In this document: piece after piece, positions 34,073 to 41,709 of the stretch | How positions within the stretch are numbered: the stretch's first letter is position 1 | How the letters are laid out: each line of letters starts with the position of its first letter | Program-made: the position numbers and the translations under genes | The notes under the pieces: generated by a model | The model's input: only the letters and a program-made list of their open reading frames with translations | Told to the model about the DNA's origin: nothing | Databases searched by the model: none | Source: Anaerolineae bacterium | GTDB taxonomy: Bacteria; Chloroflexota; Anaerolineae; Aggregatilineales; Aggregatilineaceae | Assembly (NCBI GenBank): GCA_016926875.1 | Contig: JAFGNU010000060.1 | Span: 468-64,467, forward strand | DNA length: 64,000 bases | Direction of reading: 5' to 3'

Positions 34073-34219
34073 CACATCCTTTTACCCTCGACACCTTTTA
34101 GCCCCAGCATAACGTCAAATTTGTCAAAATCGTGAACGTATGTTCTAATAGCAGTATACCACATCGATCACTTTTACACTACCATATACGCGCCGATTTT
34201 GACATCTGAGGAGAGTACC

Positions 34220-35323
34220 ATGTCCGAACCCAATCCCCGCTTGAAAGACCTGTTTTTTCAACGCCCGTTTTATGATGATCTGGTGGCAGTACTCGCGGCG
34301 ACCTGGCCCCCGTTTGACGCCGAGGCTTTTTGGTCCGGCCTGTATGACGCGGGATGGGATGACCGCTCGTTGATGGAGCGTATGCGCCACACCACCGTCA
34401 TACTGCACAGCGTGCTGCCGGAAGACTTCCGCGCCGCGCTGCGTATCTTGCAGCAGGCCGCGCCCGCGCTGGCGCAGTACGGGTTCGAGAAGCTCGTTTT
34501 GTGCGAGTACGTGGGCCTGTACGGCCTGGATGACTGGGAGGCATCGCTGCCCGCGCTGGAAGCCTTCACGCATCAGGCGAGCGCCGAGTTTGCCGTGCGC
34601 CCGTTTATTCTACAAGACCTGGAGCGGATGCTGGCGCAGATGCTCAAATGGGCTTCGCACGACAGCCCCACTGTGCGCCGCCTGGCGAGCGAAGGCTGCC
34701 GCCCGCGCCTGCCCTGGGGTATCCGGCTGCCCCCGCTGATCGACGATCCGGCGCCTGTTCTGCCAGTCCTGGAACAGCTTAAACTCGATGAAGACGAGTC
34801 GGTGCGGCGCAGTGTCGCCAATAACCTGAACGACATCGCCAAGGACAACCCGCAGGTGGTGATCGACGTGCTGCGGCGCTGGCAGGCACACGATACGCCG
34901 GAGATGGCGCAGTTGATCAGCCGCGCGCTGCGGACGCTGCTCAAGGCGGGCGATCCGGGGGCGCTGGAACTGCTGGGCTACGGGCGCGATCCCGCGATCA
35001 CGGTCAGCAACATGACGTTGGAACCGGATACGATCCCGCTGGGCGAGACGGTCGCTTTTTCGTTCGATGTCGAGTCCACCGGCCAGCAGCCGCAAGACCT
35101 GATGATCGATTACGTGGTTTACCTGATGCGCGCCAACGGTCAGCAGACGCCGAAAGTCTTCAAGCTCACCAAGCGGACCATCGCGCCGGGCGAGACGATC
35201 CACATCACCCGCAAGCAAAGCTTTGCGCCCCAATCGTCGCGCAAGTACTATCCCGGCGAGCACGCTATCGAAATACAAATCAACGGCACGACCTTCGACC
35301 GCCGCGAGTTTCTGGTTACCTGA
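34220..35323 (+). CDS. DNA alkylation repair protein family (HEAT-like repeats, YhaZ/AlkD-related) with C-terminal beta-rich domain
   Basis: SD GAGGAG before the ATG at 34220. FAVRPFILQD...WASHDSPTVRRLASEGCRPRLPWG...DEDESVRRSVANNLNDIAKDNP. Confidence 0.72.
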   Translation: MSEPNPRLKDLFFQRPFYDDLVAVLAATWPPFDAEAFWSGLYDAGWDDRSLMERMRHTTVILHSVLPEDFRAALRILQQAAPALAQYGFEKLVLCEYVGLYGLDDWEASLPALEAFTHQASAEFAVRPFILQDLERMLAQMLKWASHDSPTVRRLASEGCRPRLPWGIRLPPLIDDPAPVLPVLEQLKLDEDESVRRSVANNLNDIAKDNPQVVIDVLRRWQAHDTPEMAQLISRALRTLLKAGDPGALELLGYGRDPAITVSNMTLEPDTIPLGETVAFSFDVESTGQQPQDLMIDYVVYLMRANGQQTPKVFKLTKRTIAPGETIHITRKQSFAPQSSRKYYPGEHAIEIQINGTTFDRREFLVT

Positions 35324-36088: not shown

Positions 36089-37183
36089 CTACACAAACAG
36101 CCTGAGTTTGTCAAAATCGGCGCGCAGCGTGTCTTTCTGGCTGGCGCTGTATAACACCACGGCGGGATGGTACATCGGCAGGACGTGGATTTCGCCGTAG
36201 GGCATCTGCGCCTTGATCAGCTTGCCGTGCAGCGCGCTGATCTTGCCGCCCTTTTCGGGCAGGTCCAGCTTCTTGAGGATGTAGTGCGCGGCGAACCGGC
36301 CCAGCGGCACGATCACCGACGGCTGGATGATGTCGATCAGCCGGTCCACGAACGGCGTGTAGTAGGCGATCTCGTCGGCGGTTGGATCGCGTTTGCCGGG
36401 CGGGCGGTCCAGCAGGATATTGGTGGTGAACACGTCCTCACGGCCCAGGCCGATGTCGGTCAGCATCTCGTCGAATACGTCGCCGGACGGGCCGTTGAAC
36501 GGAATGCCCGATTCAGCTTCGTATTTGCCCGGCGCTTCACCGATAAACAGGATGCTCGCGTCGGCGTAGCCATCGCCCAACACGGGGAAGGCGCGCATCT
36601 TGGTGCGGTAGGCGTACAGCGGCGAGTCGGTTGCATCGACCAGTTCCAGGCGCAGCGCTTTGATCGCTTCTTCTTTGCGGCGCAGCGCGGCAGCATCGGC
36701 GGGCGCTTTGCCGGACCTGCTCGTGCGCACGGCGCTTTTGATCACATCCACCAGCTTGTGCATATCGTAGCCAAAGCGGTGATGGCTCAGTTCAATCGCG
36801 TTGCGCCGGGCCAGCGACGCGAGATCGTCCGGCAGATCGACGGGAGCGGGCATCGGCGCGCGCCCGACCAGCACCGGGATCACGAGCTGGCCGCCCTTCA
36901 GCGCGCTGGCGATCTCGATGCGTACAAAGTCGTTCGGCTGGTCCAACCGGCGGCGGCCTGCCTCGTCGGTGATGGTCAACCAGGACGGGCCGATCACCGC
37001 GATGAACACGTCACACGCGGCGACGGCGTCTTCGAGTGTCTGGACAAAGTCCGCGCCCGGCTCGATGTTATCCACATCCATGAAGACGTCGGCGTGATCG
37101 AAGTGCTGGACCAGGTGATCGTACAGCCGCCCGACGTACCCTTCGCTGTCCTGCCTGCGGTAGCTGATGAATATCCGGCTCAT
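36089..37183 (-). CDS. TIR domain fused to family-4-like uracil-DNA glycosylase domain (no Fe-S cysteines)
   Basis: TIR segment: MSRIFISYRRQDSEGYVGRLYDHL, DVFMDVDNIEPGADF, CDVFIAVIGPSW, DFVRIEIASAL. UDG segment: ILFIGEAPG, GIPFNGPSGDVF, VFTTNILLDRPP, VLPMYHPAVVLY. Confidence 0.85.
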   Translation of the reverse strand: MSRIFISYRRQDSEGYVGRLYDHLVQHFDHADVFMDVDNIEPGADFVQTLEDAVAACDVFIAVIGPSWLTITDEAGRRRLDQPNDFVRIEIASALKGGQLVIPVLVGRAPMPAPVDLPDDLASLARRNAIELSHHRFGYDMHKLVDVIKSAVRTSRSGKAPADAAALRRKEEAIKALRLELVDATDSPLYAYRTKMRAFPVLGDGYADASILFIGEAPGKYEAESGIPFNGPSGDVFDEMLTDIGLGREDVFTTNILLDRPPGKRDPTADEIAYYTPFVDRLIDIIQPSVIVPLGRFAAHYILKKLDLPEKGGKISALHGKLIKAQMPYGEIHVLPMYHPAVVLYSASQKDTLRADFDKLRLFV

Positions 37184-37329
37184 GGGTTGGCGCTCCTGAA
37201 CGGGTGTCTGGCACGCGCGTCATTATAGCAGGACTTGCGCCGGGGCGGGAAACGGCGGCTCGGAACCCTTGGCGGCTACGTCTTGTGGGGCGGAAAACCA
37301 GAATATCGGCAAGCTATGGAAACCTTGAA

Positions 37330-37524
37330 GCCGTTGCTCATATCCTCGAAAAGCTTAATTCTCAACCTGCGCCGCCTGACCCAACCCTGACCACTCGTGA
37401 ACGAAATATCATTCTCCGCGCTCGATACGCTGCCTGGCTATCGCAAGCTGACCTCGACGCCAGTTTGGGATTTCGTATCAACGGGTGCATCAGATTGTGC
37501 ATGGAAAACGGAATTAGACTATAA
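37330..37524 (+). pseudogene. possible relic of a sigma-70 region-4-like HTH gene
   Basis: In-frame translation LTTRERNIILRARYAAWLSQADLDASLGFRINGCIRLCMENGIRL* resembles region-4/LuxR-type HTH. There is no credible start codon, and the upstream part of the ORF looks like non-coding read-through. Confidence 0.25.
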
Positions 37525-37586
37525 ACTAACATCGACAACAGTAGTTAGGGTAGCTGCATGTTGTCTAGCAAATCCCGTGATTTAGA

Positions 37587-37623
37587 GCCAAAGGAAATCC
37601 TAAGCTGTAGGATTTCCTTTGGC
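37587..37623. terminator. perfect 15-bp hairpin straddling the stop codon of the HD-GHKL gene
   Basis: GCCAAAGGAAATCCT (37587-37601), a 7-nt loop, AGGATTTCCTTTGGC (37609-37623). No clear U-run on the minus strand. Confidence 0.45.
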
Positions 37624-40600
37624 CCAGTGTTCAAAATCTTCAGAAGTGACCTTAGTTATTTCCCCGTTAGCAAGACGAATGGTGTATGGTGGATGAAGCC
37701 TTGTATCGACCCTTGACCAGTCTACATCTTTGTATCGATTACCCAAACGTAATTGTCCATAAGTAAGTTCGGAATCATCAAACGATTCTTGAGTGCTAAG
37801 CGTCCATATAGCGCTCAGTGCAAAGTTTTGAAGGTCTGAGGGGGCTTCACGATAACGAGCATCCTGGGCCTGTTTAACAAGAGGGTGACTCCGGTTAACT
37901 GAACGAACAGGCATATGAACAGAAAAGAACTCTTGAGCTTCGCTCGAATATGGCAAAAGAATCAAGTGGCTGGTTATTCCGTTAAAAACAAATTCCCAAG
38001 GGGAGGTATTGGGTTGGGTAGGAGACTGTATTTCAAGTATTGCCGAGTTATTCTTTATAGTAACTGTAGACATTGTTGCTACAATGATTTTTATACTCCA
38101 TTCCAAACCGTGTTTCTCACTCCTTTTGGGCAACCATTTTGTGAGGGTTTCGTAAGCACCGACATTTCCCTCGTTTCCATATAATATTTGATATGATTCC
38201 TTATCTGAGCTTTTCAGTTCAATTGCGTTCAAGGAATGGATGGGAATCCATTTACGTAATTTATCTTCAAAGACGATTGGTACGGCGATTTTCGACCAGA
38301 TTGCATTTGCCCGCATCAGGAAAACCGATGTTTCACCATTACGAGAACCATAAATAACTGCCAATTGCCAAAAGGTTTCGTCGTCCAGTCTCTCCCCTAA
38401 TTGAGAAGCGATTTGTTCCCATAATCTGCCTTGCCCTCTCTCTGCAAGCATCTGAATATAATCCCAGCGTGGCCCGAAGCTGAATGCCCCTCTGCTTCGG
38501 GGAGGAAAACGCGCTGGTGTTAAAGGCGGTTTGATTTGCCCCCGTATGTCTAAAAGCGCAGACATAGGGTAAAGGTCAATAGGACTAGCTCGCCAGCCTA
38601 ACGACACCTCTTTAGCTTCTCGTCCTGGCATTCCGGCTACCAAAATGCCATCAATACATGTTTGAGTATCGAGATGGCGACGATTATCCTTAAATATCTT
38701 TCCATCGGAACTAACTAAGAGAGTTTCGTCATTGTTGTCTAGTTCGTTTTTTGGTTTCCAACTTGCCTCATCGTTATCTAGAACCAAATGCCCAGCATTA
38801 TTGATGAGGAAACTAGCTCTGATACAACCGCCTAAGAGCGGGTCAATCTCTGAAAAGTCTTGCTCAATCGTTTTACAAGTTGTGATATTGGAAATTTCCA
38901 TTAGCGTCCGAGGAGTGGCAATCTTGGGAGGTATTTTTATGGTCTCGGCTAATTCTTCTATGGTGCAATTCGCGCGTATGGGAAATTCACAAGCAAGAGC
39001 ATAGCCCCGGACCATCGAGACTAGCTTTACTTGATCGCTATATTTATCCAGAAAGCTTGGTTTTTTGCGCCCGGTGATTTCAACAGAAGTGCCAACAGGT
39101 TGGCTGTCTTCTCCTTCGCGAATAACCACGATACTACCAAGCCCATTGATTTCGATAATCAATGGAGGACCGTATCCTCGTGATGGGCCATAGTCGCGAC
39201 GAGTGTAGATAATTATATGGTCACCGAGCATAAAGCACGACATGAAACCGATGCCGAATTGTGAACACGGGTCGAAATCAACTCCAGCAGCCCTAAAACT
39301 AATCCGTTCTTGCTCAAATTCTGGGGAACGATAATAACTCCGACCAACACGAGTTAGGAAACGTTCTATTATAGCCTCGTCCATACCCGCCCCGTTGTCA
39401 GTGCATCGGATTAATTCATGGCCTTGCTCGTCCAGTTCATGTTGCATGGAAATTTCGCCACCATGCCAATTATCATTGATGTTACGTTTTATTAGCGCTT
39501 GGCGGTACCGGAGCGCGTCTAAAGAGTTTTGAAGTAATTCACGGATACAAAGCGAGGGTGAACCGTATAGTTCATCAGTCATTAGAAGTTTAACAATATC
39601 ATCACGCGACAAAGAGAACTCTAGGTCATGGTATATATAGGCATTATCTTTTGGTTCAATTCGAGACCTATCGACTTTTAAGGGAAGGTCTAGTTGATAG
39701 TATTCTACATGGGCAGGAAAGCTACGATGAATATCACGCGCGTTTGCCAATTCCTGGTCAATCCAATCGATAAACCTGTAAGCCGCTCTTTGATATTCAG
39801 GGTGTTCACATCGCATCGTAAATTGGATTTGTCCACTATTTATAATCCAGCTTTCAACAGAGCGATGCTTTGCCCATTCGATTAAACTAATATTGCTGCG
39901 AAAATCAATAGTGCGATAGAGTTCGTCAGGTGTGCGTTCTCGGTCAAAATCCAAAATATCGGCAAGGCGCAAAATCAACCCTAAATACACCATATTGACT
40001 TTGTAATGTCCGATAACCTCATCGTATCGAAAACCATTTGATGGGGTCAAGTCGTACGTTGATTTAACATGTGATAAGCACAGTCTCGCCACAAATTTAG
40101 CAAGGTTAGTGCCACCAACTTCCCATCGTCTATCACTGCCGAATGTTTTACGTACAAATTCGGCTGAGCGTTGACCATGCGTTTCACGTATGTAGTCAGT
40201 CAACAGTGCACCCTTGAGTTCATACTTTAATTCTCTATAACGTTCTTGCTCATCGTCGCGCAAACTCTCATCATTCAAATGCTGTCGCACTTGTTTTAGA
40301 TTAGGGTGTTCGATTTCCCAGTTATCTTGAAATTTCTTAAATTCACTGGTTGTTTTTAAAATGTCAATTTCATCTTTTTCCAATACCATGCCTTGGTCAT
40401 GATAATGGGCAGCCAGAATAAGTAGTGTTATTTCTACTGGATTCAATTTATCAAAGACTGATGTAGGCATAATCTTTGACATTAATTCAGTGACACGAAT
40501 GAGATGAACCTCGTCGTGCAATGTATATTCAGGATGAAGAGACGGAAACCCTTTCATTCGGTTATATGCTTGGTTACATATACCAATTAGGTTTGGGGCA

Positions 40601-40698
40601 AGTGTGCCTGCAACTTGCCCATCGGCGCCAGAAAAGCCTCTGTTGAGACGTTGCCACAATGACGTATCTTCTAATTTTGCAATCCGAGTAGCAGACAT
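37600..40698 (-). CDS. large HD-domain / GHKL (Hsp90-MutL-MORC-like) ATPase protein
   Basis: HD pattern: LHDEVH ... LILAAHYHDQGM ... LRLADILDFD. GHKL motifs: IRELLQNSLDA, CTDNGAGMD, SQFGIGFMSCF. I prefer the ATG at 40698; the ORF is open to a TTG at 40728. Confidence 0.85.
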   Translation of the reverse strand: MSATRIAKLEDTSLWQRLNRGFSGADGQVAGTLAPNLIGICNQAYNRMKGFPSLHPEYTLHDEVHLIRVTELMSKIMPTSVFDKLNPVEITLLILAAHYHDQGMVLEKDEIDILKTTSEFKKFQDNWEIEHPNLKQVRQHLNDESLRDDEQERYRELKYELKGALLTDYIRETHGQRSAEFVRKTFGSDRRWEVGGTNLAKFVARLCLSHVKSTYDLTPSNGFRYDEVIGHYKVNMVYLGLILRLADILDFDRERTPDELYRTIDFRSNISLIEWAKHRSVESWIINSGQIQFTMRCEHPEYQRAAYRFIDWIDQELANARDIHRSFPAHVEYYQLDLPLKVDRSRIEPKDNAYIYHDLEFSLSRDDIVKLLMTDELYGSPSLCIRELLQNSLDALRYRQALIKRNINDNWHGGEISMQHELDEQGHELIRCTDNGAGMDEAIIERFLTRVGRSYYRSPEFEQERISFRAAGVDFDPCSQFGIGFMSCFMLGDHIIIYTRRDYGPSRGYGPPLIIEINGLGSIVVIREGEDSQPVGTSVEITGRKKPSFLDKYSDQVKLVSMVRGYALACEFPIRANCTIEELAETIKIPPKIATPRTLMEISNITTCKTIEQDFSEIDPLLGGCIRASFLINNAGHLVLDNDEASWKPKNELDNNDETLLVSSDGKIFKDNRRHLDTQTCIDGILVAGMPGREAKEVSLGWRASPIDLYPMSALLDIRGQIKPPLTPARFPPRSRGAFSFGPRWDYIQMLAERGQGRLWEQIASQLGERLDDETFWQLAVIYGSRNGETSVFLMRANAIWSKIAVPIVFEDKLRKWIPIHSLNAIELKSSDKESYQILYGNEGNVGAYETLTKWLPKRSEKHGLEWSIKIIVATMSTVTIKNNSAILEIQSPTQPNTSPWEFVFNGITSHLILLPYSSEAQEFFSVHMPVRSVNRSHPLVKQAQDARYREAPSDLQNFALSAIWTLSTQESFDDSELTYGQLRLGNRYKDVDWSRVDTRLHPPYTIRLANGEITKVTSEDFEHWAKGNPTA

Positions 40699-41091
40699 TG
40701 AGCTATTGACCTTCCATGTTTGCGACAAATACTTCTTGAATGTTAGGAGGGAAATACAGTCGATTTACGTGACAAGATCTTAGAACTGTTTGGATGGAGA
40801 AAGCTATAGACGGCATTATATTACAATTGAATTTATAAAGTCACAATGTAATGTATCTCATGTAGGTATGTAAAAACAAGTTGCCCTTCGCTGCAAGCCA
40901 GCGGCACCGCCCCTAGCGCATTAGTGGTGCAACGCAGGCGCGGGAGTAGCCTGGGTAGGGCACCCCGGCGCAAGACCGGGGAGGGGTTCCGGGAGGGGAT
41001 TGCACCCCCCCGCCAGGGGTTAGGGTATGATAGGCGTGCAGCGAATCGCCAACAACCCGGCAGATGACGGGATCAGGCGCAAGGAGCGAAA

Positions 41092-41709
41092 ATGGCAGAT
41101 AAATTGATCGAAACCGAGGTGAAGCTGTTCACGCCCGACCTGGACGCGGTCCGGGCGCGGCTGGAAACGGCGGGTGCAGCGCTGGACCAGGCGCGCGTGC
41201 ACGAGCACAATATCCGCTACGAGGACGCGGGCGGCACGCTGACAGGACGGGGGATCGTGCTGCGGCTGCGGCGCGATAGGCGCGCCCGGCTGACGTACAA
41301 AGAACCGCCGTCGGGCGGCGTGAGCCTGTCGCCGGGTGTCTGGACACGCTTTGAAGCGGAAGTCACGGTCGATGACCTGGACACGATGGACGTGATTTTG
41401 CAGCGATTGGGTTTTCACCCGCATGTGGTTTATGAAAAGTACCGGACCACGTACCGCCTGGGCGATGCGGAGATCGTGCTGGACGAGATGCCGTATGGTG
41501 ACTTTATCGAGGTCGAGGGCACACCAGAGGCCATCGAGTCGGCGCTGGCGGCGTTGGGCATGCAGGCTGAACCACGCCTGCTGCTGAGCTACATGGCGCT
41601 GTTCGAGCGCGTTAAGGCGGCGCTGGGCCTGGATATACACGATCTGACGTTCGCCAACTTTGAGGGCGTGGACGTGCCGCCGGAGGTATTCCACCTCACC
41701 GACCGCTGA
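41092..41709 (+). CDS. CYTH-domain protein (class IV adenylyl cyclase / triphosphatase family)
   Basis: SD AAGGAG. The N-terminal ExExK motif IETEVKL, plus RLRRD...RLTYKEP and FIEVEG strands typical of the CYTH tunnel fold. Confidence 0.85.
   Translation: MADKLIETEVKLFTPDLDAVRARLETAGAALDQARVHEHNIRYEDAGGTLTGRGIVLRLRRDRRARLTYKEPPSGGVSLSPGVWTRFEAEVTVDDLDTMDVILQRLGFHPHVVYEKYRTTYRLGDAEIVLDEMPYGDFIEVEGTPEAIESALAALGMQAEPRLLLSYMALFERVKAALGLDIHDLTFANFEGVDVPPEVFHLTDR

What the first reader, a model, noticed from the sequence alone, without database searches (positions are those of the whole stretch)
36089..37183. TIR domain fused to a cysteine-free family-4-like uracil-DNA glycosylase: candidate nucleic-acid-sensing immune protein
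Seen:
- Residues 1 to about 140 have the TIR_2 layout (MSRIFISYRRQDS, DVFMDVDNIEPGADF, CDVFIAVIGPSW, DFVRIEIASAL with the conserved Glu, IPVLV).
- After a linker of about 35 aa, residues of about 175-364 carry the family-4 UDG motifs in order. These are ILFIGEAPG (motif A), GIPFNGPSGDVF, VFTTNILLDRPP and VLPMYHPAVVLY (motif B).
- The UDG half contains no cysteine at all, so the four Fe-S ligands of canonical family-4 UDGs are missing.
Established: TIR domains are NADase or signal-generating effectors in bacterial immunity. UDG-superfamily proteins flip out and recognise uracil or modified bases, and a UDG-fold glycosylase has been reported as an anti-phage factor. Inference: this is a one-polypeptide sensor-effector. 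A base-flipping module may read uracil-containing or hypermodified invader DNA, or DNA damage, and couple that to TIR activation. I know of no named system with this architecture, but I cannot search. The gene sits next to a clearly foreign islet and 0.8 kb from an AlkD/YhaZ-like DNA-repair gene.
Basis: partly seen in the sequence, partly recalled or inferred. Interest (0 to 1): 0.8.

Follow-up and report, generated by a model that had tools for sequence, protein, structure and literature searches.

The report
TIR domain fused to uracil-DNA glycosylase
This is a real gene that joins an NAD-cleaving TIR "alarm" domain to a working-looking uracil DNA-repair enzyme, but it behaves like an inherited DNA-repair gene of one group of Chloroflexota rather than a mobile anti-phage gene, so it may link DNA damage to NAD metabolism.

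Summary
[quoted passage not shown] Profile searches and a confident AlphaFold model support both domains. The TIR catalytic Glu (E90) and the UDG catalytic residues are invariant or nearly so in 121 homologues. All four Fe-S cysteines are replaced (A184/S187/D259/Y275). That replacement is not special to the fusion, because 121 stand-alone UDGs sampled, several from Patescibacteria, share it.

The immune reading is only partly supported. The fusion is a tight family (63-74% identity, about 364 aa) whose named members are all Chloroflexota. It has host-like GC and its own -10 box, and both domains are equally conserved. In 24 loci the neighbours are mostly housekeeping genes, with another DNA glycosylase (AlkC or Tag) within 4.5 kb in 7 loci. 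The low-GC neighbour is unique to this genome. No PADLOC system, viral copy or paper matches.

My best reading is a lineage-core repair UDG carrying a catalytically competent TIR, possibly switched on when many copies cluster on uracil-rich or abasic DNA. That coupling is inference. I rate it a new variant of known kinds, of moderate interest.

The parts
36089..37183 (-). Complete TIR-UDG gene (364 codons plus stop)
   Evidence: ORF. An exact copy is in public data as P0001, from an Anaerolineae MAG. More than 120 full-length homologues of about 364 aa were listed. GC is 0.63 against 0.61 for the window.
36734..37183 (-). SARM1-type TIR domain, aa 1-150
   Evidence: Pfam TIR_2 E 7e-15. phmmer to SARM1 TIR E 1e-9, with FISYRR, D36, G43, F46 and E90 aligned to the matching SARM1 residues. 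Foldseek TM 0.82-0.87. Mean pairwise identity in the family is 72.5%.
36914..36916 (-). Codon of E90, the putative TIR catalytic glutamate
   Evidence: It aligns with the Glu of SARM1 'DWVHKEIVTAL'. That this Glu is the catalytic E642 is from my own knowledge. E90 is invariant in the 24-sequence alignment and at maximal conservation among the 121 fusion proteins. The equivalent Glu is invariant in 104 TIR-X relatives. Coordinates.
36677..36733 (-). Variable linker, aa 151-169
   Evidence: Mean pairwise identity is 37%, against about 72% for the two domains. pLDDT is below 50 at residues 154-156.
36092..36676 (-). Clusterless family-4 uracil-DNA glycosylase domain, aa 170-364
   Evidence: Pfam UDG E 4e-28 and TIGR00758 above its cut-off. 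PDB 4zbx E 5.6e-37 over aa 174-361. Foldseek TM 0.91, rmsd 1.4 A. The Fe-S ligand positions are A184, S187, D259 and Y275.
36527..36541 (-). UDG motif A, GEAPG (aa 215-219)
   Evidence: Among 121 family members: G215 in 120, E216 in 115, P218 in 120 and G219 in 121. Coordinates.
36161..36169 (-). UDG motif B, HPA (aa 339-341)
   Evidence: H339 and P340 are present in 121 of 121 members. F229 and N255, the uracil stacking and recognition residues, are also present in 121 of 121. Coordinates.
37222..37230 (-). Probable own promoter: extended -10 box TGCTATAAT, 39 nt upstream of the ATG
   Evidence: Sequence read. A TANAAT box lies 30-75 nt upstream of the ATG in 13 of 19 homologous loci, against a 2.7% background. 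The consensus -35/-10 scan found nothing here, because there is no -35 match.
34199..35323 (+). Neighbouring AlkC-type alkylpurine DNA glycosylase. It is recurrent context, not part of the protein.
   Evidence: PDB 5vi0/5vhv AlkC, E 3.5e-79 over aa 10-371. An orthologue lies within 4.5 kb of TIR-UDG in L004, L008 and L111 as well.

Best explanation
The gene encodes a two-domain enzyme. It is a vertically inherited, autonomously transcribed gene of one clade of Chloroflexota (Aggregatilineales / Phototrophicaceae type).

The C-terminal half is a catalytically intact family-4 uracil-DNA glycosylase of a subfamily that has lost the Fe-S cluster. It most likely does ordinary base-excision repair of uracil. 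This part is shown by sequence, structure and context.

The N-terminal half is a SARM1-type TIR with a complete NAD+-cleaving residue set, held under the same purifying selection as the UDG. This part is shown by sequence only.

Inferred mechanism: TIR NADase sites form only when TIR domains self-associate. Isolated repair events would therefore keep the TIR silent. Many copies bound side by side on DNA that is dense in uracil or abasic sites would bring the TIR domains together and switch on NAD+ cleavage. Such DNA could come from heavy deamination, dUTP misincorporation or a uracil-DNA invader. NAD+ cleavage would act as a growth-arrest or alarm output.
For: Domains and fold.

Catalytic residues:
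- The TIR catalytic Glu and the SARM1-aligned pocket residues (Y8, R10, D36, G43, F46, E90) are invariant in the 24-sequence alignment and at maximal conservation in the 121-member alignment. The Glu is also invariant in TIR-X relatives.
- UDG residues G215, E216, P218, G219, F229, N255 and H339 are invariant or nearly so.

Equal constraint on both domains: TIR 72.5% and UDG 71.7% mean pairwise identity, against 37% for the linker.

Core-gene behaviour:
- The fusion collapses into one 50%-identity cluster of uniform length (about 364 aa), and all organism names attached to its members are Chloroflexota.
- GC is host-like.
- The gene is more conserved than its syntenic neighbours: 72% against 57-60%.
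- A -10 box of its own is present in 13 of 19 loci.

Repair context: AlkC lies within 4.5 kb in 4 of 24 loci and Tag in 4 of 24, giving 7 distinct loci.

Contrast: the adjacent HD-CE/HSP90-like gene shows the pattern expected of a mobile conflict gene. It has GC 0.43 and patchy homologues across phyla.

That TIR NADase activity needs TIR-TIR assembly is established knowledge from SARM1, plant TIR and bacterial TIR structures. It is my own knowledge and was not tested here.
Against: - No enzymatic activity is shown for either domain.
- I could not test whether these genomes lack another UDG, so the 'housekeeping' role is contextual.
- A constitutively expressed NADase on a core protein needs tight control. 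The model gives no confident inter-domain arrangement (pTM 0.59), so there is no evidence for autoinhibition or for DNA-templated assembly.
- No LexA box is conserved upstream.
- There are some hints of conflict biology. A Uma2 nuclease, which matches PADLOC candidate PDC-S03, lies immediately next to the gene in 5 of 24 loci. A second TIR gene lies 0.5 kb away in L109.
Confidence: 0.4

Rival explanations
1. This is a dedicated single-gene anti-phage (abortive infection) system. The UDG domain senses uracil-containing or modified phage DNA and the TIR depletes NAD+.
For: - An N-terminal TIR with a variable C-terminal module is the typical layout of this TIR subtype.
- There are weak matches to Thoeris-type TIR profiles: PADLOC ThsB1 at 4e-12 and NCBIfam ThcB4 at 45 bits.
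- UDG-fold glycosylases can be antiviral, as with Brig1 and Brig2.
- A Uma2 nuclease (PDC-S03 candidate) is adjacent in 5 of 24 loci, and a second TIR gene lies near the gene in L109.
- In this genome the gene lies next to a horizontally acquired HD-CE/HSP90-like gene.
Against: - The family is tight and lineage-restricted, with uniform length and strong conservation, unlike the patchy cross-phylum pattern of the neighbouring islet gene.
- Neighbourhoods are mostly housekeeping or repair genes. PADLOC scanning of 77 neighbours gave only generic hits.
- No PADLOC system model covers the protein.
- No fusion copy was found on viral contigs.
- The uracil pocket is canonical rather than Brig1-like.
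- The islet is adjacent only in this window.
Confidence: 0.2
2. It is a plain repair UDG whose TIR is a non-enzymatic module for dimerisation, partner recruitment or stability, perhaps compensating for the lost Fe-S cluster.
For: - Many TIR domains act as scaffolds (my own knowledge).
- The context is DNA repair.
- There is no conserved partner effector gene.
Against: - The catalytic Glu and the SARM1-aligned NAD-pocket residues are at maximal conservation across 121 proteins and are shared with 104 TIR-X relatives. That pattern is not expected for a pure scaffold.
- Stand-alone clusterless UDGs of about 200 aa exist in large numbers without any TIR, so the TIR is not needed to replace the cluster.
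Confidence: 0.2
3. The TIR acts on nucleic-acid or nucleotide substrates rather than simply depleting NAD+. Examples would be processing at the abasic site, 2',3'-cNMP-synthetase-type activity on DNA as reported for plant TIRs, or a base-exchange reaction that uses the excised uracil.
For: - Two N-glycosidic-bond-cleaving folds sit on one chain, joined by a short flexible linker.
- Plant TIRs bind DNA/RNA, and SARM1 catalyses base exchange (my own knowledge).
Against: - There is no direct evidence.
- The TIR is indistinguishable in its conserved positions from TIR-X relatives whose C-terminal domains have nothing to do with DNA.
Confidence: 0.1

Closest known systems
Family-4 uracil-DNA glycosylases (UDGa), e.g. 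S. tokodaii UDG (PDB 4zbx), T. thermophilus UDGA (1ui0), T. maritima TM0511 (1vk2)
   Same: - Same fold: TM 0.84-0.91.
- Motif A GE(A/G)PG and motif B HP(A/S).
- The uracil-stacking Phe and the recognition Asn.
- Scores above the TIGR00758 cut-off.
   Different: - All four [4Fe-4S] cysteine ligands are replaced by A/S/D/Y.
- An N-terminal TIR domain of 150 aa is fused to it.
- It scores below the cut-off of the archaeal equivalog NF040953: 161.7 against 250 bits.
Stand-alone clusterless family-4-type UDGs of about 200 aa, several from Patescibacteria (e.g. Zambryskibacteria, Nealsonbacteria)
   Same: - 45-53% identity to the UDG half.
- The same S/D/Y substitutions at three of the four ligand positions, and intact catalytic motifs, in 121 of 121 sampled.
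   Different: - They have no TIR domain.
- They come from different phyla and sit in housekeeping contexts.
SARM1 TIR domain (NAD+ hydrolase)
   Same: - It is the best solved relative of the N-terminal half (E 1e-9; TM 0.82-0.87).
- FISYRR, D36, G43, F46 and the catalytic Glu all align.
   Different: - About 28% identity.
- It has no ARM or SAM regulatory domains.
- The C-terminal partner is a DNA glycosylase.
Bacterial N-terminal TIR-X proteins of the same TIR subtype (TIR plus FGE-sulfatase, TPR, WD40, HSP70, Ank, Sel1 and others)
   Same: The TIR is 50-60% identical and has the same invariant residues.
   Different: - Their C-terminal module is a repeat or binding domain, not a DNA-repair enzyme.
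- They occur in many phyla.
Brig1/Brig2 antiviral UDG-fold glycosylases
   Same: They share the UDG superfamily fold. The S. tokodaii UDG is also Brig1's nearest structure.
   Different: - According to the paper, Brig1 has an enlarged pocket with Tyr/Glu, sits in a defence island and has no TIR.
- Here the canonical Phe/Asn pocket is kept and the context is not a defence island.
Thoeris ThsB TIR proteins
   Same: There is a weak profile match over the first 65-70 residues of the TIR.
   Different: - No ThsA-type effector (SIR2 or Macro/SLOG) was listed among the annotated neighbours in the 11 loci that have Pfam tables.
- Scores are far below the family cut-offs.

Membership tests
Family-4 UDG (UDGa) | UDG alpha/beta fold | tested here: met
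   Foldseek TM 0.91 and rmsd 1.4 A to 4zbx. Pfam PF03167 E 4e-28.
Family-4 UDG (UDGa) | Motif A GE(A/G)PG and motif B HP(S/A), with the stacking Phe and recognition Asn | tested here: met
   GEAPG at 215-219, HPA at 339-341, F229 and N255, all conserved in 115-121 of 121 homologues.
Family-4 UDG (UDGa) | Curated family model score above its cut-off | tested here: met
   TIGR00758 scores 164.9 bits against 125.3. The narrower equivalog NF040953 scores 161.7 against 250, so that one is not met.
Family-4 UDG (UDGa) | [4Fe-4S] cluster held by four cysteines | tested here: not met
   The ligand positions are A184, S187, D259 and Y275, and the UDG half has no Cys. I therefore file it as a clusterless subfamily related to family 4, not as a canonical member.
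Family-4 UDG (UDGa) | Excision of uracil from DNA | not testable with these tools
   This needs an enzyme assay.
Catalytic (NADase) TIR domains, SARM1-like | TIR flavodoxin-like fold | tested here: met
   Pfam TIR_2 E 7e-15. Foldseek TM 0.82-0.87 to SARM1 TIR.
Catalytic (NADase) TIR domains, SARM1-like | Catalytic glutamate at the SARM1 E642 position | tested here: met
   E90 aligns with the Glu of SARM1 'HKEI'. It is invariant in the 24-sequence alignment and at maximal conservation in 121 proteins.
Catalytic (NADase) TIR domains, SARM1-like | Self-association into a composite active site, and NAD+ cleavage | not testable with these tools
   Only a monomer model is available and there is no assay.
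Thoeris (ThsB with ThsA) | TIR protein encoded next to a ThsA effector, and a family model above its cut-off | tested here: not met
   ThcB4 scores 45.5 bits against 220. No SIR2 or Macro/SLOG neighbour appears in the annotated loci.
Brig1-type antiviral UDG-fold glycosylase | Enlarged pocket (Tyr/Glu in place of Phe/Asn) and defence-island context | tested here: not met
   F229 and N255 are retained, compared with the description in PMC11078745. The neighbours are mostly housekeeping genes.
UdgX | Motif A GEQPG, an R-loop with the cross-linking His, and a family model above its cut-off | tested here: not met
   TIGR03914 scores 82 bits against 190, and motif A here is GEAPG. The R-loop itself was not examined.
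Known anti-phage systems (PADLOC-DB 2.0) | A full-length match to a system protein model | tested here: not met
   There are only partial TIR matches (ThsB1 over aa 3-69, PDC-S66, SAVED_TIR), and nothing covers the UDG half.

The most novel reading that the evidence does not exclude
TIR-UDG is a lesion-density-gated NADase. When uracil or abasic sites become dense, whether in the cell's own genome or on uracil-DNA of an invader, DNA-bound copies assemble through their TIR domains and collapse NAD+ or make an NAD-derived signal. This would be a bacterial counterpart of the eukaryotic coupling of DNA damage to NAD+ consumption (PARP1, SARM1), fixed as a core gene in a filamentous Chloroflexota lineage.

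A bolder sub-version is that the TIR uses the freshly excised uracil in a base-exchange reaction with NAD+ to make an adenosine-uridine dinucleotide signal.
Probability: 0.25. Interest if true: 0.85.

Novelty: new variant of a known kind. Interest (0 to 1): 0.55.

Why it matters
TIR NADases in bacteria are known from mobile immune systems. Here one is welded to a conserved base-excision-repair enzyme and inherited like a core gene, with both halves under equal constraint.

If the TIR is active and controlled by what the glycosylase meets on DNA, this would be a direct link between DNA-lesion load and NAD+ metabolism in bacteria. It would also be a simple one-protein model for how a TIR can be switched on by a nucleic-acid template.

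The locus also points to a large, apparently uncharacterised Fe-S-free branch of family-4 UDGs. That branch bears on the debated role of the cluster in DNA glycosylases.

Tried and rejected
- Functional link to the low-GC neighbour (HD-CE/HSP90-like, 37600-40728). Rejected: it is absent from the other loci compared by sequence and from the four added later. It has a foreign GC content and a patchy cross-phylum distribution, and TIR-UDG has its own -10 box.
- SOS regulation. A GAAC-N4-GTTC search allowing one mismatch in 19 upstream regions found only two scattered hits, so there is no conserved LexA box.
- Phage origin. A scan of viral contigs found only UDG-only or TIR-only relatives.
- Known defence system. 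PADLOC gave only partial TIR hits for the protein and generic hits for 77 neighbours (Uma2 = PDC-S03, a kinase, a group II intron RT).
- Apparent extra fusion in L067 (match to aa 84-364). Rejected: it is an artefact of joined tblastn pieces, and the UDG there is a 209-aa stand-alone gene.
- The 353-aa antisense ORF 36167-37228(+). Rejected as a gene. It is a shadow ORF of a GC-rich gene, and its 'conservation' in other loci (34-50%) only mirrors the sense strand.
- The consensus -35/-10 promoter and terminator scan around the gene found nothing.
- Literature. Seven full-text searches found no paper describing a TIR-UDG fusion or a clusterless family-4 UDG.
Full report
**1. What is there**

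The minus-strand ORF 36089-37183 encodes a 364-aa protein. An identical protein is in public data from an Anaerolineae MAG (P0001).

Domain evidence:
- Pfam finds TIR_2 at aa 4-134 (E 7e-15) and UDG at aa 204-351 (E 4e-28).
- NCBIfam's family-4 UDG model TIGR00758 scores 164.9 bits, above its 125.3 cut-off. The UdgX, archaeal-equivalog and Thoeris models are all far below theirs.
- Against solved structures, aa 174-361 match the S. tokodaii family-4 UDG (4zbx, E 5.6e-37) and aa 4-144 match the SARM1 TIR domain (E 1e-9).
- An AlphaFold2 model built on 24 homologues is confident (mean pLDDT 87.8), with a dip only at residues 154-156.
- Foldseek returns 4zbx at TM 0.91 and rmsd 1.4 A, and SARM1 TIR at TM 0.82-0.87.

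The protein's only cysteine is C57. The true flexible linker is about 15-20 aa (151-169), because residues 164-182 already form the first helix of the UDG fold.

**2. Are the two domains functional?**

In the SARM1 alignment, E90 sits under the Glu of 'DWVHKEIVTAL'. From my own knowledge that Glu is the catalytic E642. FISYRR, D36, G43 and F46 also align with their SARM1 counterparts. These positions are invariant in the 24-sequence alignment and at maximal conservation in the 121-protein alignment. The Glu is also invariant in 104 TIR relatives with other architectures.

In the UDG half, among 121 family members:
- Motif A: G215 is present in 120, E216 in 115, P218 in 120 and G219 in 121.
- The stacking residue F229, the uracil-recognition residue N255 and the motif B residue H339 are each present in 121 of 121.

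Mean pairwise identity is 72.5% for the TIR, 71.7% for the UDG and 37% for the linker. Both domains are thus under equal purifying selection and are joined by a free tether.

**3. The missing Fe-S cluster**

The four cluster ligands of 4zbx align with A184, S187, D259 and Y275. These are present in 121, 118, 120 and 121 of the 121 fusion proteins.

The closest stand-alone relatives are UDGs of about 200 aa at 45-53% identity. Several are named as Zambryskibacteria or Nealsonbacteria (Patescibacteria). At the same positions they carry S (115 of 121), D (121 of 121) and Y (121 of 121), with intact catalytic motifs. They sit in housekeeping contexts.

Cluster loss therefore defines a large UDG subfamily and predates the TIR fusion. 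It is not a sign that the domain has degenerated into a mere reader. I found no paper on such a subfamily.

**4. Distribution**

- The 120 best hits in the 90%-clustered database are all TIR+UDG proteins, 66-74% identical and 360-373 aa long. Where a name is given, it is Anaerolineae, Chloroflexi or Phototrophicaceae.
- In the 50%-clustered library the whole fusion family collapses into one full-length representative (P0121, 63%), plus fragments and one divergent variant (P0143, 358 aa, 35% overall, with a shorter TIR).
- Species-representative genomes with the fusion are labelled Phototrophicaceae, Aggregatilineales, Anaerolineaceae and Anaerolineae.
- More divergent members (55-63%) occur in metagenomes.
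- No fusion was found on viral contigs.
- The TIR alone is different. It is 50-60% identical to hundreds of proteins from several phyla, and the C-terminal parts that Pfam could name include FGE-sulfatase, TPR, WD40, HSP70, Ank and Sel1. The TIR is a promiscuous N-terminal module, and the UDG is one of its many partners.

**5. Genomic context**

I compared 24 loci (the window plus 23 others). Some are short.

- Neighbours differ from locus to locus and are mostly metabolic or housekeeping genes. Examples are ribosomal proteins S2 and L9, EF-Ts, GlnA, GOGAT, PFK, Mfd, Pth and CTP synthase.
- The recurrent neighbours are DNA-repair glycosylases.
  - The window gene 34199-35323 is a full-length AlkC homologue (5vi0, E 3.5e-79). 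AlkC lies within 4.5 kb in the window, L004, L008 and L111.
  - Tag lies within 3.5 kb in L002 (11 bp away), L008, L030 and L112.
  - Together that makes 7 of 24 loci. For single-copy genes this is far above a rough chance expectation of about 0.05 loci, although shared ancestry makes the loci non-independent.
- A Uma2 nuclease-fold gene is immediately adjacent in 5 of 24 loci: L004, L008, L023, L036 and L112. Uma2 matches the PADLOC candidate PDC-S03. This is the main hint of conflict biology, together with a second TIR gene in L109.
- PADLOC scanning of 77 neighbour proteins otherwise gave only generic kinase and group II intron RT hits.
- TIR-UDG is more conserved than its syntenic neighbours: 72% against 57-58% for AlkC and 60% for a 1397-aa protein.
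- A TANAAT -10 box lies 30-75 nt upstream of the ATG in 13 of 19 loci, against a 2.7% background. The window copy is TGCTATAAT at 37222-37230. The gene therefore appears to be transcribed on its own.
- No LexA box is conserved upstream.

**6. The 'foreign islet'**

The 1042-aa gene at 37600-40728 carries an HD-CE domain (E 1e-55) and an HSP90-like ATPase. Its GC is 0.43 against 0.61 for the window. Its homologues are scattered across Clostridium, Peribacillus, Hymenobacter, Armatimonadota, Acidobacteriota and others, and the best non-self hit is only 58% identical. It is not next to TIR-UDG in any other locus.

It serves as a useful internal contrast. It shows what a horizontally mobile conflict gene looks like, and TIR-UDG does not look like that.

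**7. Mechanism**

Shown by sequence and structure:
- a canonical uracil-pocket glycosylase of a clusterless family-4 branch;
- a TIR with the full SARM1-type catalytic set;
- a flexible tether between them;
- inheritance and context typical of a repair gene.

Inferred: TIR NADase sites are composite and need TIR-TIR assembly (established for SARM1, plant and bacterial TIRs; my own knowledge). The simplest coupling is therefore by local density. Single repair events would leave the TIR monomeric and silent. DNA crowded with uracil or abasic sites would line up many copies and switch on NAD+ cleavage. This could serve as a damage-overload or thymine-stress alarm, as defence against uracil-DNA invaders, or both.

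Rivals:
- a dedicated abortive-infection gene (0.2);
- a non-enzymatic TIR scaffold (0.2), which is disfavoured by the conserved catalytic set;
- a TIR acting on nucleic-acid or nucleotide substrates, including base exchange with the excised uracil (0.1).

**8. Comparison and novelty**

- The protein works like a family-4 UDG but fails that family's Fe-S criterion, so I file it as a clusterless relative.
- Its TIR meets the sequence and fold criteria of catalytic SARM1-like TIRs.
- It is not Thoeris (no ThsA partner, scores below cut-off).
- It is not Brig1-like (canonical pocket, no defence island).
- It is not UdgX.
- Seven full-text searches found no description of a TIR-glycosylase fusion. 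Two papers on antiviral glycosylases do not mention one.

I rate it a new variant of known kinds. The domain fusion is real, conserved and undescribed, but its function rests on inference.

**9. Verdict**

- The immune sensor-effector interpretation is partly supported. The architecture logic holds, but context and distribution do not fit.
- Interest is 0.55. A core-gene TIR on a repair enzyme is unexpected and directly testable, but nothing here shows TIR activity or its coupling to DNA.

Noticed in passing
window 37600-40728 (-): A 1042-aa gene with an HD-CE domain (PF24391, E 1e-55) and an HSP90/GHKL-like ATPase sits in a low-GC islet (0.43 against 0.61). Its homologues are scattered across many phyla, and the best non-self hit is 58% identical. 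It looks like a horizontally acquired single-gene conflict or defence candidate. PADLOC matches only the HD-like C-terminal part of a UG24 DRT model.
   Followed up: partly
window 37587-37623 and 37300-37560: A perfect 16-nt inverted repeat with a 5-nt loop spans the stop codon of the islet gene. Between it and the TIR-UDG promoter lies about 300 bp with a 106-aa plus-strand ORF (37204-37524). That ORF reads to me like a helix-turn-helix remnant, but it has no Pfam hit. It may be a relic of the element that brought in the islet.
   Followed up: partly
window 34199-35323 (+): A full-length homologue of the alkylpurine DNA glycosylase AlkC (PDB 5vi0, E 3.5e-79, aligned over nearly its whole length), not AlkD/YhaZ. 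In L008 the genes TIR-UDG, Uma2, AlkC and Tag form a small glycosylase cluster.
   Followed up: yes
L004 11105-11764; L008 11154-11804; L023 7276-7992; L036 8123-8863; L112 1143-1790: Uma2-family (PD-(D/E)xK nuclease fold) genes lie immediately next to TIR-UDG in 5 of 24 loci. Four are on the same strand, 8-59 bp away. In three loci the gene is downstream and in two upstream. This may be a real association or may only reflect a high Uma2 copy number in these genomes.
   Followed up: partly
P0247, P0173, P0271-P0389; loci L040-L108: There is a large subfamily of stand-alone UDGs of about 200 aa of family-4 type. Several are named as Patescibacteria. The Fe-S ligands are replaced by (L/A), S, D and Y, and the catalytic motifs are intact. 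I found no paper describing a clusterless family-4 UDG.
   Followed up: partly
P0147-P0270; loci L009-L020: The same TIR subtype (50-60% identical, catalytic Glu invariant) forms the N-terminus of hundreds of proteins in Acidobacteriota, Gammaproteobacteria, Hyphomicrobium and Chloroflexota. Their C-terminal domains include FGE-sulfatase, TPR, WD40, HSP70, Ank, Sel1 and GH25. Some proteins carry two TIRs in tandem.
   Followed up: partly
L037 6842-8088: The TIR-UDG copy in this metagenome contig is split into two overlapping ORFs of 184 and 252 aa. This is either a frameshifted pseudogene or an assembly error.
   Followed up: no
L028 141-1217 (P0143): A divergent TIR-UDG of 358 aa has a shorter TIR that lacks the 13-aa insert before the catalytic Glu. 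The UDG half is 44% identical and also clusterless. It may be an independent fusion or a domain swap. Only short contigs carry it (2.6 and 6.8 kb), and only the 2.6-kb one was read.
   Followed up: partly
L109 6686-7705 (-): A second, separate TIR-domain gene (339 aa) lies 0.5 kb downstream of TIR-UDG in one relative, together with several small genes that include a DUF4258 protein.
   Followed up: no
window 36167-37228 (+): A 353-aa antisense ORF covers the whole TIR-UDG gene. Its apparent conservation in other loci only mirrors the coding strand. It is a shadow ORF of a GC-rich gene, not a gene.
   Followed up: yes
window 41092-41709 (+): A CYTH-domain protein (E 5e-15) lies directly beyond the islet. 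It is not syntenic with TIR-UDG in the loci compared.
   Followed up: no
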